UHGV virus genome: UHGV-0004901
Source: a virus
DNA: 38,194 nt
Reading direction: 5' to 3' (one strand)
Shown: in pieces, positions 31,639 to 34,984 of the stretch
Layout: each line of letters begins with the position of its first letter
Numbering within the stretch: position 1 is the stretch's first letter
Notes under the pieces: model-generated
Seen by the model: the letters and a program-made list of their open reading frames with translations, nothing else
Told to the model about the DNA's origin: nothing
Databases searched by the model: none
Program-made: the position numbers and the translations under genes

Positions 31639-31663
31639 AGGCCGCTTTCGCGGCCTTGTTTTT
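31639..31663 (+). terminator. Rho-independent terminator ending the late/moron transcript
   Basis: AGGCCGC-TTTC-GCGGCCT hairpin followed by TGTTTTT. Confidence 0.7.
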
Positions 31664-31823
31664 AACGAATGCCACCGCCGCCCGGGCGGGAATCCGCAGA
31701 ACGCCCACCGCAGCGGGAGCCGTCAGCGGCAGTATCGCTGTCGTGCTGACAACGACCGGCAAAGGCCTGAGTTGAAGCTACCAGAGACAACAAAACGAAC
31801 AGTGCAGCAAATGCTTTTTTCAT
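31662..31823 (-). CDS. Small protein with Sec-type signal peptide (53 aa), speculative
   Basis: MKKAFAALFVLLSLVASTQAFA then a 31-aa Gly/Arg/Cys-containing tail; possible promoter TTGACG-16-TATAGA upstream; weak SD. Confidence 0.3.
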   Translation of the reverse strand: MKKAFAALFVLLSLVASTQAFAGRCQHDSDTAADGSRCGGRSADSRPGGGGIR

Positions 31824-31894
31824 TGTGACATTTCCATCTATAAGCCACCTCAATGTGGCGTCAATGAGTGTAGCACTGACTTTTGTTTCGTCCA

Positions 31895-31917
31895 CAAAAA
31901 AGCCCTCGCCGCGGGCT
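31895..31917 (-). terminator. Rho-independent terminator after the 31917..32456 gene
   Basis: Minus-strand AGCCC-GCGGCGA-GGGCT hairpin followed by a T6 run. Confidence 0.6.
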
Positions 31918-32456
31918 TACCAAAACTTGTACCACGGGGATTTATCCTTCAATGGACAATCCTTCCATCGTGTGGCTAACCATTCATATTCTTTAAAATA
32001 TGTGTTTATGTTTTCTTTTTCTCTAATAGCTTGTATAAGAGGTAGCGCAATCTGATAGTTATTTACAACGGAGCTGTAAAATACTTCCTTAATCATGGTC
32101 TCATCATAAGTTTTCCGCTTCACGCTCACAGCCATGCGTTCGTAGAAACCTAGACAGTAAATTATTTCTCTCTTCTCTATCTTTTCTTCATCCGTAAGAT
32201 CAGCCTGCCCATTGCTTGGATACATATAAGAGCGGAATGATTTGTTCGACTCGTGAATGCGGCGCATAGTAGATAGGCCTTTCTTATAATCTACATCAAA
32301 CCTGCTTTCACCAAGGAATACTGAAGTGTGTACTTTTCTCGCTGTATTTACATTATAAATAATAGTAGCGATAGCTATGAACAAGCCAAGCGAAACCGCG
32401 ACTGCACTTACGATTTGAGCCACAGCCATGGCAAATTGCATTTCTTCACTTAACAC
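31917..32456 (-). CDS. Membrane-anchored protein of unknown function (single N-terminal TM, about 36% GC); candidate superinfection-exclusion/defence protein
   Basis: GTG start with SD GGAG; TM segment AMAVAQIVSAVAVSLGLFIAIATII; AT-rich; occupies the position held by sieA in P22-type genomes. Confidence 0.55.
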   Translation of the reverse strand: MLSEEMQFAMAVAQIVSAVAVSLGLFIAIATIIYNVNTARKVHTSVFLGESRFDVDYKKGLSTMRRIHESNKSFRSYMYPSNGQADLTDEEKIEKREIIYCLGFYERMAVSVKRKTYDETMIKEVFYSSVVNNYQIALPLIQAIREKENINTYFKEYEWLATRWKDCPLKDKSPWYKFW

Positions 32457-32474
32457 AAACTGTCTCCAGACATG

Positions 32475-32496
32475 AAAACGGGGCCTAATGGCCCCG
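32475..32496 (-). terminator. Hairpin/terminator between the antirepressor gene and the 31917..32456 gene
   Basis: Minus-strand ACGGGGCC-ATTA-GGCCCCGT hairpin followed by TTTT. Confidence 0.5.
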
Positions 32497-32585
32497 TCAT
32501 TAAACTATCCGAATGTTAAACGCCTTCGTACTCGTCAAATTTTCTCATGTGGGCTCCTCCTGTATCGGTGCCTAATCGCTATGGA

Positions 32586-32600
32586 TCACCCGTAAGGTAA
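32586..32600. promoter_or_regulatory. Operator-like palindrome TCACCCGTAAGGTAA
   Basis: Direct reading. Confidence 0.45.
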
Positions 32601-32672
32601 TAGTACTCTATTCACCACCCTGTCTGCAATCGTACAGAATTATTTAAAAGCACATCCATGTGCCACCGCCCG

Positions 32673-33383: not shown

Positions 33384-33652
33384 GGTGGTTATCTCCACTT
33401 AGTGATTTTAATCACCACCGCAACGCCAATTACTGGTGGTGAACTGGACAAGGTTGGCGTACCGGCCTAAGTGGTACCGGCGTCCTTTCGGACCCCTGCC
33501 CAGCCCACCATAATTCGGATATAGCTGTGCTTAACGCATAAAAAAACCACGTCTGGCGTGGTATGCGCCACTTAGTAACTCGGGACGCCAATCCCGGCAC
33601 TGGATTTTGCCAGTACCCGATTACTATGGCACAAGAGGAGTGCGATGTAAAT

Positions 33653-34509: not shown

Positions 34510-34533
34510 GCCGCTCTTGCGGCCTTTAAATTT
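34509..34533. terminator. Hairpin/terminator between convergent genes
   Basis: GGCCGC-TCTT-GCGGCC followed by TTTAAATTT. Confidence 0.5.
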
Positions 34534-34789
34534 ACCGGGTTTGTTTTCGTAATTGTTCGGCACAATAGTCGAGATGTGTTTGCAGATCCCGCATAGACAT
34601 CTGTGACCTGGTGACGTAGTTAATCAGTGCAGTCAGTTCGGCAAGTGGGCCATCGACATTAAATCCATCCTTATCGAGATCCCGGAGTAATTTCATCAAG
34701 TGCGATCCCTCCACCAGTGATCTGACGCCTCCCGGCGTGTGAATCCTTTCGGTAAATCCGTCTTCCAGTGGATAGTGATACTGCTGCAT
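34532..34789 (-). CDS. Antirepressor C-terminal-domain paralog (85 aa, stand-alone)
   Basis: ...GGVRSLVEGSHLMKLLRDLDKDGFNVDGPLAELTALINYV...RDLQTH... aligns by eye with the Ant C-terminus ...SGVLGLTENSLLMNLLNQLQEDGHDVSGAAAELTTMFCYI...RDIQTH...; strong SD GGAGAAG before ATG 34789. Confidence 0.5.
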   Translation of the reverse strand: MQQYHYPLEDGFTERIHTPGGVRSLVEGSHLMKLLRDLDKDGFNVDGPLAELTALINYVTRSQMSMRDLQTHLDYCAEQLRKQTR

Positions 34790-34865
34790 CTTATCTTCTC
34801 CATACGATAACTGTATATTTATACAGTAACAAATAATTTGTTTGCTATCCAGCACGTTTTGCAAA

Positions 34866-34880
34866 TCACCTGAAAGGTAA
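34866..34880. promoter_or_regulatory. Operator-like palindrome TCACCTGAAAGGTAA between the Ant-C paralog and the tail fibre gene; followed by CATATGTGGTT-N5-GGTAATA (34910..34932)
   Basis: Direct reading. Confidence 0.5.
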
Positions 34881-34984
34881 TATCTGTTCGTATTTATGGG
34901 TTGTCTATCCATATGTGGTTTTTTAGGTAATAGAATGACCAGATATGCGGCGCAACGGGTGCTGCGACTATCTGGAGATTTAAC

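What the first reader, a model, noticed from the sequence alone, without database searches (positions are those of the whole stretch)
32475..32600. Ten-codon ORF with a near-perfect Shine-Dalgarno between an operator and a terminator hairpin, upstream of the membrane-anchored gene
On the minus strand the order is operator (32586..32600), then CAGGAGGAGCCCAC-ATG AGA AAA TTT GAC GAG TAC GAA GGC GTT TAA (peptide MRKFDEYEGV, 32516..32548), then the hairpin ACGGGGCC-ATTA-GGCCCCGT plus TTTT, then the SD and GTG of the 31917..32456 gene. A strongly initiated micro-ORF followed by a terminator in front of a gene is the architecture of a leader-peptide attenuator.
Basis: seen in the sequence. Interest (0 to 1): 0.45.

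Follow-up and report, generated by a model that had tools for sequence, protein, structure and literature searches.

The report
Conserved 10-codon peptide gene before DUF4760
The ten-codon reading frame is a real, evolutionarily conserved gene for a tiny acidic peptide that, together with a terminator hairpin, almost always precedes one family of membrane-anchored prophage proteins (DUF4760) across many bacteria, an undescribed peptide-plus-protein unit rather than a textbook attenuator.

Summary
On the minus strand: AGGAGG, 7 nt, ATG...TAA (MRKFDEYEGV), 17 nt, a 9-bp G+C hairpin (-18 kcal/mol) with U4, GGAGA, then the GTG of a 179-aa DUF4760 gene.

It is not chance and it is not the ant terminator. 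The same unit (micro-ORF, hairpin plus U-run, DUF4760) precedes 72 of 75 DUF4760 genes retrieved by protein similarity alone, from Escherichia, Klebsiella, Serratia, Pantoea, Erwinia, Yersinia and Pseudomonas phages. Their genomic contexts are unrelated.

The peptide is under selection as a peptide:
- Core motif [DE]-E-[YF]-[DE]-G-[VFIL]-stop.
- Third codon positions vary freely; first and second positions are almost fixed.
- The hairpin shows compensatory changes in 8 of 10 pairs.

The classical attenuator parts are missing. There is no antiterminator and there are no regulatory codons. The distance from stop codon to hairpin ranges from 15 to 59 nt. Distant lineages keep a micro-ORF but lack the terminator.

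Best reading: a two-gene cassette with its own promoter. A leaky internal terminator would give much peptide mRNA and little DUF4760 mRNA, as at microcin C mccA-mccB, and the peptide most likely acts on or with DUF4760. A cis-acting arrest-peptide leader remains a serious rival. I found no Rfam, NCBIfam or literature record.

The parts
32624..32629 (-). Candidate -35 hexamer TTGCAG of the cassette promoter (inferred)
   Evidence: TTGCAR, 17/18 nt, TAnnAT sits at the same place in window, L016 and L008 although the spacer has diverged and L008 has no ant upstream. It is below the threshold of the simple scan. That scan lists another candidate, GTGGCA-16-AATAAT at 32666-32639. Neither has been tested.
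32600..32605 (-). Candidate -10 hexamer TACTAT (inferred); the predicted start would be near 32593
   Evidence: Sequence. The positional equivalents are TAATAT, TAAAAT and TAAGAT in L016, L008, L040 and L043.
32585..32601 (-).
   Evidence: ATTACC-N5-GGTAAT, with invariant arms and a free N5, lies 53-92 nt upstream of the micro-ORF ATG in 13 of 15 diverse cassettes. It overlaps the predicted core promoter. The binding partner is unknown.
32556..32561 (-). Shine-Dalgarno AGGAGG of the micro-ORF, 7 nt before ATG
   Evidence: Sequence. Every homologous leader has GGAGG, GAGGA or GGGGG at the same spacing.
32516..32548 (-). Micro-ORF, 10 codons plus TAA, peptide MRKFDEYEGV
   Evidence: 31 distinct nucleotide versions. 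Entropy at codon positions 1/2/3 is 0.31/0.40/1.11. Asp and Glu are invariant and the stop is TAA in 30 of 31. Present upstream of 72 of 75 DUF4760 loci found by protein similarity.
32499..32515 (-). 17-nt A+U-rich spacer between stop codon and hairpin
   Evidence: Diverges fast: 7 of 19 positions differ between window and L008, against 1 of 33 in the ORF. Length is mostly 16-19 nt in Enterobacterales and 15-59 nt in wider relatives.
32475..32498 (-). Intrinsic-terminator-type hairpin (9 bp, loop ATTA) with U4
   Evidence: -18.4 kcal/mol, z = -5.1. Covariation: 83.9% of cells paired and 6 of 10 pairs with double changes on a MAFFT alignment. On the model-fitted alignment 87.6% paired, 8 of 10 pairs, 42 cells, 0 of 500 shuffles as high. 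Other lineages have U5-U8.
32463..32467 (-). Shine-Dalgarno GGAGA of the DUF4760 gene
   Evidence: Sequence. (U)GGAG follows the U-run in most lineages.
31917..32456 (-). DUF4760 gene, 179 aa, N-terminal membrane helix plus an all-helical domain
   Evidence: Pfam PF15956, E = 1.6e-30. The GTG start is supported by GTG or ATG at the same aligned position in homologues. AlphaFold model has pLDDT 90.
31894..31918 (-). Terminator AAGCCCGCGGCGAGGGCTTTTTTGTGG closing the cassette; right edge of the variable cargo slot
   Evidence: Listed by the terminator scan. The same sequence ends the alternative cargos in IAI39, phiv142-3 and TL-2011b.
32639..32672 (-). Segment after the ant stop with a weak hairpin GCACA-TGGA-TGTGC plus TTTTAAATAATT; the more likely ant terminator (uncertain)
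   Evidence: Conserved with every ant relative, whatever cargo follows. Stem letters differ compensatorily in Klebsiella and L016 (GGCGC...GCGCC). The energy is weak: -6.4 kcal/mol, z = -0.8.

Best explanation
The region is the 5' part of a self-contained cassette inserted in the variable cargo slot downstream of the c4/isrK-ant immunity module of this P22/epsilon15-like prophage. The order is promoter with operator-like inverted repeat, strongly translated 10-codon gene, intrinsic terminator, DUF4760 gene, terminator.

Shown: the micro-ORF is conserved as a protein-coding sequence (family motif ...[DE]-E-[YF]-[DE]-G-[VFIL]-COOH). The hairpin is conserved as a structure. Both are tied to DUF4760 and not to ant.

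Inferred:
1. Most transcripts stop at the hairpin, giving a short peptide mRNA of about 120 nt.
2. A minority read through the short U4 tract and provide the only mRNA for DUF4760, because there is no room for a promoter between hairpin and gene. One promoter would therefore deliver much peptide and little DUF4760, the dosing logic documented for microcin C mccA-mccB.
3. The peptide is the functional partner of the cytoplasmic helical domain of DUF4760, for example a short-lived ligand or inhibitor, rather than a by-product of regulation.

My confidence by step: about 0.9 that the ORF is a translated, selected gene; about 0.85 that the hairpin is the cassette's own terminator; about 0.5 that its role is a constitutive leaky stop that sets the ratio; about 0.4-0.45 that the peptide acts in trans on DUF4760.
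For: Peptide-level selection:
- Window MRKFDEYEGV; Klebsiella and Serratia MKKFDEYEGV, with 4-5 synonymous changes each; Pantoea MRKFDEFEGF; Erwinia MQKFDEFEGF; Yersinia-type MKKFDEFDGF.
- P2-like E. coli and Citrobacter phages M[KR][KR]x[FY]DEFDGF.
- Pseudomonas-phage lineage ...REEYEGI...NEEYEGF...REEYEGL; other lineages ...DENDGY.
- Codon-position entropy 0.31/0.40/1.11.

Linkage to DUF4760:
- 72 of 75 protein-retrieved loci carry motif, hairpin and T-run. The three exceptions are a recombinant and two 5'-truncated genes.
- Peptide-pattern scans hit almost only DUF4760 leaders.

Hairpin: compensatory changes, and a covariance model built on enterobacterial leaders also finds the Pseudomonas-type ones.

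Not ant's terminator: the cassette occurs without ant.

Against a steric or structural switch, and so for a plain internal terminator:
- No antiterminator.
- Spacer-to-downstream pairing is no better than shuffles, mean z = +0.41.
- Stop-to-hairpin distance is 15-59 nt.
- Micro-ORFs with related acidic, Gly and hydrophobic C-termini persist where there is no terminator: Alteromonas phage P24, L169, and L172 with its stop 5 nt before the gene.

Built for high expression: AGGAGG at 7 nt, AAA/AGA second codons, and TAA stop in 30 of 31.

Precedent: the 7-codon mccA with SD ATAGGAGG, an intrinsic terminator before mccB, a 105-107-nt RNA and a ratio of about 20:1 (PMC4231749).

Predicted topology (my reading of the sequence, positive-inside rule) puts the DUF4760 domain in the cytoplasm, where the peptide is made.
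Against: - There are no transcript, ribosome or binding data. Termination at this hairpin is inferred from shape only.
- U4 followed by CAUG is a weak tail.
- The scan did not list the hairpin.
- A free 10-residue unmodified peptide would be expected to be degraded quickly, and no fold or interaction could be computed with these tools.
- C-terminal conservation with a variable N-terminus is equally what a ribosome-tunnel arrest peptide would show.
- One natural variant (L121) keeps DUF4760 without the micro-ORF. The IAI39-type recombinants keep the micro-ORF without DUF4760. Neither part is therefore strictly dependent on the other for survival of the host.
- In the P2-type lineage a conserved spacer motif UUAACCUCU is complementary to the micro-ORF's SD. 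This hints at an RNA-level switch that the simple dosing model does not need.
- The motif similarity of the most distant micro-ORFs (EGWGG, EGVRD, VIGGL) was found with a filter that favoured acidic/aromatic ends, so it is suggestive only.
Confidence: 0.45

Rival explanations
1. Cis-acting regulatory leader peptide. The nascent chain ...DE[YF][ED]G[VF] acts inside the ribosome, by arrest at or near the stop codon or by ribosome destabilisation by the acidic stretch. It would do so in response to some signal, and ribosome occupancy would then change read-through of the terminator, mRNA stability or initiation at the DUF4760 start.
For: - Conservation is concentrated in the last 6-7 residues while the N-terminus varies from 4 to 15 residues. 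That is the pattern of tunnel-acting arrest peptides.
- A terminator lies between ORF and gene in almost all close lineages.
- The spacer is 16-19 nt in most enterobacterial leaders.
- In the P2-type lineage the spacer motif UUAACCUCU can pair with the micro-ORF's SD (8-10 bp, -9 to -12 kcal/mol). Its CCUC can also pair with GAGG at the base of the terminator's 5' arm, a possible ribosome-sensitive three-way competition.
- Ribosome binding changes termination at mccA (PMC4231749).
Against: - No conserved alternative structure links ribosome position to the hairpin.
- A ribosome at the stop codon would, by my estimate, cover about 10 nt of the 17-nt spacer and not reach the stem.
- The window lineage lacks the SD-spacer complementarity (-5.4 kcal/mol, z = -0.1).
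- Spacing reaches 59 nt in relatives.
- Micro-ORFs persist without a terminator.
- The peptide is found with one protein family only.
Confidence: 0.3
2. Classical amino-acid-sensing attenuator of the trp/his type. Ribosome stalling at regulatory codons would choose between antiterminator and terminator.
For: The order SD, short ORF, terminator, gene is present.
Against: - No antiterminator.
- No repeated codons; codon usage at each position varies synonymously.
- The downstream gene is a membrane-anchored prophage accessory protein, not a biosynthetic operon.
- Stop-to-hairpin spacing is variable.
Confidence: 0.03
3. The short transcript is chiefly a regulatory RNA, or a dual-function RNA, ending at the hairpin, and the ORF is secondary.
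For: A unit of about 120 nt running from promoter to terminator. The 5' untranslated part is also well conserved between window and L008.
Against: - Three-base periodicity of variation shows selection on the peptide.
- The untranslated parts are unrelated between lineages.
- No Rfam match.
- U4 is short for an Hfq-type sRNA end.
Confidence: 0.05
4. Chance ORF, with the hairpin simply being the terminator of ant.
For: The hairpin lies 175 nt downstream of the ant stop on the same strand.
Against: - ORF and hairpin are conserved with DUF4760 in contexts lacking ant.
- ant relatives carrying other cargo lack the hairpin.
- ant has its own conserved hairpin right after its stop.
Confidence: 0.01

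Closest known systems
Microcin C operon leader: mccA, intrinsic terminator, mccB (Zukher et al. 2014, PMC4231749)
   Same: A tiny ORF (7 against 10 codons) with a near-consensus SD at the 5' end of an operon. An intrinsic terminator lies in the intergenic region with no promoter after it. A short RNA of about 105-120 nt is predicted. The downstream product depends on read-through. The precedent shows that such a terminator sets a high peptide-to-enzyme mRNA ratio.
   Different: The peptide is unrelated (MRTGNAN against MRKFDEYEGV). There is no MccB-type adenylating enzyme, no export or immunity genes, and no C-terminal Asn. The partner here is one small membrane-anchored helical protein. Ribosome dependence of termination was not tested here.
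Classical leader-peptide transcription attenuators (trpL, hisL, pheL, pyrL)
   Same: Order of elements: SD, short translated ORF, G+C hairpin with U-run, then the structural gene.
   Different: No antiterminator hairpin, no regulatory codon runs, peptide sequence conserved as amino acids, variable stop-to-hairpin distance, and a non-biosynthetic downstream gene.
Nascent-peptide sensors (tnaC, ermBL/ermCL, secM, mgtL)
   Same: A short ORF whose C-terminal residues are conserved, lying upstream of the regulated gene. Like mgtL, it has an acidic stretch early in a very short chain (my recollection of that literature, not checked here).
   Different: No Rho-site, SD-sequestering or antiterminator element that a stalled ribosome could control was found. 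There is no known ligand and no similarity to any of these peptides.
Precursor-peptide gene plus leaky terminator in RiPP/bacteriocin and pqq operons (from general knowledge, not checked here)
   Same: The small structural gene comes first, with a partial terminator before the partner genes.
   Different: No modifying enzymes, no leader/core organisation, no signal sequence; the peptide has only 10 residues.

Membership tests
Classical leader-peptide attenuator (trp/his type) | Short translated leader ORF upstream of the regulated gene | tested here: met
   SD plus a 10-codon ORF, conserved with coding periodicity.
Classical leader-peptide attenuator (trp/his type) | Intrinsic terminator between leader ORF and gene | tested here: met
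   9-bp G+C hairpin plus U4. The structure is conserved with compensatory changes. Actual termination was not measured.
Classical leader-peptide attenuator (trp/his type) | Mutually exclusive antiterminator pairing that overlaps or abuts the leader ORF | tested here: not met
   Terminator stem probability is 0.87-1.0 in 28 leaders. Competing pairing of the 5' arm gains 0 to -10 kcal/mol (window -2.9), against -12 to -19 for the hairpin.
Classical leader-peptide attenuator (trp/his type) | Run of codons for the sensed amino acid | tested here: not met
   No repeated residue in MRKFDEYEGV. Conservation is of the whole hexapeptide.
Arrest-peptide / nascent-chain sensor | Conserved residues in the C-terminal, tunnel-proximal part of a short ORF | tested here: met
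   [DE]-E-[YF]-[DE]-G-[VFIL]-stop is conserved and the N-terminus is variable.
Arrest-peptide / nascent-chain sensor | An RNA element whose state depends on the stalled ribosome's footprint | tested here: inconclusive
   None in the window lineage. There is a possible SD-spacer-terminator-base competition in the P2-type lineage only.
Arrest-peptide / nascent-chain sensor | Demonstrated ribosome stalling | not testable with these tools
   Needs toeprinting or ribosome profiling.
mccA-type small-peptide gene with internal terminator | Tiny ORF with strong SD as the first gene; intrinsic terminator before the next gene; no internal promoter | tested here: met
   Only 21 nt separate the hairpin from the GTG, and these hold the SD.
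mccA-type small-peptide gene with internal terminator | Abundant short transcript and minor read-through transcript | not testable with these tools
   Needs Northern blotting or 3'-end mapping.
mccA-type small-peptide gene with internal terminator | Downstream MccB-like enzyme and a heptapeptide ending in Asn (membership in the microcin C family proper) | tested here: not met
   The downstream protein is DUF4760 only, and the peptide ends in Val or Phe.
Known RNA families (Rfam 15) | Match to any curated leader or sRNA model | tested here: not met
   No hit at 32454-32600 even at E up to 5, and none in eight homologous loci.
Known anti-phage defence systems (PADLOC 2.0) / NCBIfam | Profile match of DUF4760 or of the longer peptides | tested here: not met
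   No hits.

The most novel reading that the evidence does not exclude
A widespread, undescribed two-component module of temperate phages. A ribosomally made acidic peptide of 7-21 residues, with a conserved ...[DE]-G-hydrophobic C-terminus, would be the dedicated ligand, antidote or trigger of a membrane-anchored protein. That protein's helical domain resembles the small-molecule-binding EP domain of plant EDS1/PAD4 immune proteins. The peptide would be overproduced through an internal terminator and turned over quickly. Loss of host gene expression, for example on phage infection, would then release DUF4760 activity. That would be among the smallest gene-encoded partners known in a toxin-antitoxin-like or defence system.
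Probability: 0.3. Interest if true: 0.85.

Novelty: new variant of a known kind. Interest (0 to 1): 0.68.

Why it matters
Genes of ten codons are missed by annotation pipelines and by most small-protein surveys. Here comparative sequence alone gives coding-level evidence for one.

It is linked to a protein family of about 2,100 clusters at 50% identity with no known function. One lineage of the cassette is present in 289 of 5,426 complete E. coli genomes and the window's lineage in 41.

The cassette sits in places where temperate phages keep accessory and defence genes:
- the cargo slot after ant;
- the gpA-gpQ hotspot of P2-like phages, where it is listed but untested (PMC9122126);
- tail-gene morons;
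- next to cI.

If the peptide partners DUF4760, this is a new and very simple peptide-protein system. If it acts in cis, it is a new arrest-peptide family with an unknown signal. Either outcome is directly testable with a handful of constructs.

Tried and rejected
1. Antiterminator search. Partition-function folding of 28 leaders and folding of transcripts truncated before the 3' arm found nothing conserved.

2. The extended lower stem seen in the window's minimum-free-energy fold (UUCGGAUA with UGUCUGGA, covering part of the DUF4760 SD). I tested it across lineages as spacer-to-downstream duplexes. It is no better than shuffles (mean z = +0.41), so I rejected it as a general mechanism.

3. 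SD-to-spacer pairing. It is real-looking only in the P2-type lineage and absent in the window.

4. A second mini-ORF starting at the AUG just after the U-run. Its frame relative to DUF4760 is not conserved, so I rejected it as coding.

5. An internal promoter for DUF4760 inside the micro-ORF or spacer. I saw no acceptable hexamer spacing when reading the sequence.

6. A protein-pattern scan of species-representative genomes with the single DUF4760 protein found no relative. Alignments A5 and A6 were too diverse to seed locus searches.

It was redone with alignment A2.

8. PADLOC, NCBIfam, Rfam and full-text searches for DUF4760, PF15956 and the peptide strings gave nothing relevant.

9. Resemblance of ...FDEFDGF-COOH to the acidic, Phe-ended C-terminal tail of SSB (DFDDDIPF). 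This is from memory only and untested, so I did not use it.

Full report
**What is in the window**

- AGGAGG (32561-32556), then 7 nt.
- ATG AGA AAA TTT GAC GAG TAC GAA GGC GTT TAA (32548-32516, MRKFDEYEGV).
- A 17-nt A+U-rich spacer.
- The hairpin GACGGGGCC-ATTA-GGCCCCGUU (32498-32477), whose T-run is 32478-32475.
- GGAGA (32467-32463), 6 nt, and the GTG (32456) of a 179-aa ORF ending at 31917.

The hairpin alone folds at -18.4 kcal/mol, z = -5.1 against shuffles. The 179-aa protein is a DUF4760 (PF15956) protein, E = 1.6e-30. It has one N-terminal membrane helix and a confidently modelled all-helical domain (pLDDT 90).

**Surroundings**

Upstream on the same strand, Rfam finds an isrK/c4-a1b1 element (33616-33540) and a C4 antisense RNA (33515-33432). 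These lie directly before a BRO-N antirepressor gene (33398-32673), so this is a P1-type c4-ant immunity module. The nearest annotated relatives are P22-like or epsilon15-like (Uetakevirus) E. coli prophages.

The stretch between the ant stop and a shared terminator (AAGCCCGCGGCGAGGGCTTTTTT, 31918-31894) is a variable cargo slot:
- the window carries DUF4760;
- E. coli IAI39-type prophages carry an unrelated 211-aa gene;
- phiv142-3 carries small ORFs;
- TL-2011b carries a YafO-type toxin-antitoxin pair.

Only the first roughly 85 nt after ant are common to all of them. That segment holds a weak hairpin followed by TTTTAAATAATT. Its stem letters change compensatorily in Klebsiella and in L016. 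It is the better candidate for the ant terminator.

**The unit is conserved far beyond this prophage**

In 41 complete E. coli genomes the region is at least 98.8% identical, which says nothing about selection. I therefore fetched DUF4760 homologues over a range of identities and read their upstream DNA. Every one has an SD-led ORF of 10-11 codons, then a G+C hairpin with a T-run, then an SD and the DUF4760 start:
- Klebsiella: ATGAAAAAATTTGATGAGTATGAGGGTGTTTAA (MKKFDEYEGV)
- Serratia: ATGAAAAAATTCGATGAGTACGAAGGCGTATAA (MKKFDEYEGV)
- A 63%-identity relative: MKKFFDEYELV
- Pantoea: MRKFDEFEGF
- Erwinia: MQKFDEFEGF
- Yersinia-type: MKKFDEFDGF
- A copy in a non-phage chromosomal site: MEKFDEYEGV

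The flanking nucleotides are unrelated between these lineages.

A degenerate back-translation of the peptide was scanned over species-representative genomes, IMG/VR and JGI metagenomes. Setting aside one hit with no start codon, one cut off by the contig end and the IAI39-type recombinants, every representative hit I examined is followed by a DUF4760 homologue.

Conversely, 70 IMG/VR loci were found by DUF4760 protein similarity alone. These include a 44-52%-identity lineage whose leaders encode M[KR][KR]x[FY]DEFDGF, followed by textbook terminators (GGCGGGGA-loop-UCCCCGCC plus U6).

Pseudomonas-phage relatives (about 31% identity) have 15-21-codon ORFs ending REEYEGI, NEEYEGF or REEYEGL, plus terminators. 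Other lineages end DENDGY.

Overall, 72 of 75 protein-retrieved loci with enough upstream DNA carry motif, hairpin and T-run. The exceptions are one locus whose upstream was replaced inside the hairpin and two 5'-truncated genes.

**Selection acts on the peptide and on the hairpin**

Among 31 distinct micro-ORF sequences, mean entropy over the last eight codons is 0.31 and 0.40 at codon positions 1 and 2, and 1.11 at position 3. Asp and Glu are invariant, Gly is present in 30 of 31, and the stop is TAA in 30 of 31. Between window and L008, the ORF differs at 1 of 33 positions (a synonymous change). The spacer differs at 7 of 19.

For the hairpin, a MAFFT alignment of 30 leaders gives 83.9% paired cells and double changes at 6 of 10 pairs, with 0 of 500 shuffles as high. 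A covariance model built from that alignment finds a single strong hit in the window (32454-32524). It also finds Pseudomonas-type leaders that were not used to build it. Its structural alignment gives 87.6% paired cells, 8 of 10 pairs and 42 cells with double changes. That alignment is fitted to the model and leans towards it.

**Is it an attenuator?**

The defining switch is missing:
- In 28 leaders the terminator stem has mean pair probability 0.87-1.0.
- If the 3' arm is withheld, pairing of the 5' arm with anything upstream gains only 0 to -10 kcal/mol (-2.9 in the window). The hairpin itself is worth -12 to -19 kcal/mol.
- The lower stem seen in the window's minimum-energy fold, which would cover part of the DUF4760 SD, is not reproduced across lineages. 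Spacer-to-downstream duplexes average z = +0.41.
- There are no codon runs.
- The stop-to-hairpin distance is 16-19 nt in most enterobacterial leaders, but 24-29 nt in some and 36-59 nt in the DENDGY lineage.
- By my estimate a ribosome at the stop codon covers about 10 nt downstream and would not reach the stem in any of them.

More distant DUF4760 lineages also carry SD-led micro-ORFs. Some have terminators...RDDFPGL, MREVIGGL/MRDVIDGL and MSKEGTRD. Some have none: Alteromonas phage P24 (MNLRDGWDDI), L169 (...LDGSEGF), and L172 (MKDTWDY, ending 5 nt before the gene). For some searches part of the search used a filter that favoured acidic/aromatic ends, so the motif kinship of the farthest ones is suggestive only.

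The constant element is therefore the tiny ORF. The terminator is frequent but dispensable.

**Most likely mechanism**

The cassette has its own promoter region. TTGCAR-17/18-TAnnAT is kept at the same place in three contexts with diverged spacers, one of them without ant. The simple scan offers GTGGCA-16-AATAAT a little upstream.

An inverted repeat ATTACC-N5-GGTAAT, with invariant arms and a free centre, overlaps the core promoter in 13 of 15 diverse cassettes. It looks like an operator for an unidentified factor.

From there the simplest reading is a small gene with its own terminator, followed by a gene that can only be reached by read-through. One promoter would give much peptide mRNA and little DUF4760 mRNA. 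This is the arrangement shown experimentally for the 7-codon mccA gene (SD ATAGGAGG), the intrinsic terminator before mccB, a 105-107-nt RNA and a steady-state ratio of about 20:1 (PMC4231749).

The following fit a peptide that works with DUF4760 better than a by-product of regulation:
- the peptide is conserved as a peptide;
- it is built for high expression (strong SD, AAA/AGA second codon, TAA stop);
- it is found with this one protein family only;
- it outlasts the terminator in evolution.

I give the whole chain 0.45.

The main rival, at 0.30, is that the conserved C-terminus acts inside the ribosome as an arrest or destabilising sequence. Such peptides show the same conserved C-terminus and variable N-terminus. 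The P2-type lineage has a conserved spacer motif, UUAACCUCU. It is complementary to the micro-ORF's SD, and its CCUC can pair with the base of the terminator's 5' arm. The window lineage lacks it.

**Comparison with what is known, and novelty**

No Rfam family matches the leader in the window or in eight homologous loci. NCBIfam and PADLOC have nothing for DUF4760 or for the longer peptides. The literature held here mentions DUF4760 once, in passing. The peptide strings appear nowhere relevant.

Rousset et al. list 'DUF4760 + StbA + Plasmid_stab_B...' among gene arrangements of the P2 gpA-gpQ hotspot. DUF4760 and its neighbours do not appear in the paper's main text, so I found no sign that it was examined or tested (PMC9122126). 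Loci L157 and L158 show the cassette in exactly that position.

The kind of element is known: a small upstream ORF plus a terminator. This family, its peptide-level conservation and its exclusive tie to DUF4760 appear to be new, so I rate it a new variant of a known kind.

**Scale**

- The profile search finds 2,095 DUF4760 clusters at 50% identity with E up to 1e-3, and 396 with E up to 1e-10.
- The P2-type cassette is in 289 of 5,426 complete E. coli genomes.
- The window type is in 41.

**Limits**

Everything about transcription, translation, termination efficiency, peptide stability and peptide-protein contact is inference from sequence. No experiment-level data were available, and the tools could not co-fold peptide and protein.

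Noticed in passing
window 33432-33616 (-): isrK/c4-a1b1 element (33616-33540) and C4 antisense RNA (33515-33432) lie directly upstream of the BRO-N antirepressor gene (33398-32673). This is a P1-type c4-ant immunity module in a P22/epsilon15-like prophage. The same pair precedes ant in the Klebsiella and Serratia loci L040 and L043.
   Followed up: partly
window 32585-32601 (-); L016, L008, L040, L043, L053, L114, L133, L139, L143, L130, L135: Inverted repeat ATTACC-N5-GGTAAT, with invariant arms and a free 5-nt centre, in the promoter region of 13 of 15 diverse DUF4760 cassettes. It lies just after the predicted -10 in the window type, and between -35 TTGACT and -10 in the P2 type. It looks like an operator, but no candidate binding protein was identified.
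   Followed up: partly
window 31894-32672 (-); L003, L006, L007: The interval between the ant stop (plus about 85 nt) and the shared terminator AAGCCCGCGG..GGGCTTTTTT is a swap site for cargo. It holds DUF4760 here, a 211-aa protein with no family in IAI39-type prophages, small ORFs in phiv142-3, and a YafO toxin-antitoxin pair in TL-2011b. In 11 E. coli genomes the micro-ORF is retained at 98-100% identity in front of the 211-aa gene, with the junction at about 32503.
   Followed up: yes
[not shown]
   Followed up: no
window 34532-34912 (-): A 126-aa ORF whose C-terminal half resembles the C-terminal domain of the Ant protein (...LMKLLRDLDKDGFNVDGPLAELT...RDLQTH.. against ...LMNLLNQLQEDGHDVSGAAAELT...RDIQTH..). 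It may be a second, truncated antirepressor-like gene next to the tailspike. There is no Pfam hit.
   Followed up: no
L118, L127-L153, L157, L158 (P2-type leaders): The spacer motif (U)UAACCUCU(AYG)AGG between the micro-ORF stop and the terminator is conserved at nucleotide level. It is complementary to the micro-ORF's SD region (8-10 bp, -9 to -12 kcal/mol), and its CCUC can pair with GAGG at the base of the terminator's 5' arm. It is absent from the window lineage.
   Followed up: partly
window 32471-32474 and the equivalent site in most loci: Directly after the U-run most lineages have (C/U)AUGG(A/G). The AUG's frame relative to DUF4760 differs between lineages: in frame in L049, L050, L058 and L157, out of frame in L118, L133, L155 and the window. 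It is therefore conserved as RNA, probably as part of the SD.
   Followed up: partly
L049, L112 (upstream of the cassette); L050-L052, L111: Five tandem copies of a 10-nt unit (GTTCGTCTTG), with related TTCCGTTTCCG repeats, lie just upstream of the cassette promoter in lambda-like tail-region insertions.
   Followed up: no
window 31662-31823 (-): Downstream of the cassette terminator lies a conserved small ORF, MKKAFAALFVLLSLVASTQAFAGRCQHDSD..., with a signal-peptide-like start. PGAP annotates it as a 53-aa hypothetical protein. It is kept in all the cargo variants.
   Followed up: no
L121: This is the only intact-looking DUF4760 gene without a micro-ORF. The upstream DNA is replaced from inside the hairpin loop, leaving only the 3' arm and the U-run.
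   Followed up: partly
window 32475-32498 (-): The simple terminator scan did not report this hairpin, although by my count it satisfies the stated rule (at least 5 pairs, loop of 4, 5 T in the next 8 bases). The reason was not resolved.
   Followed up: no
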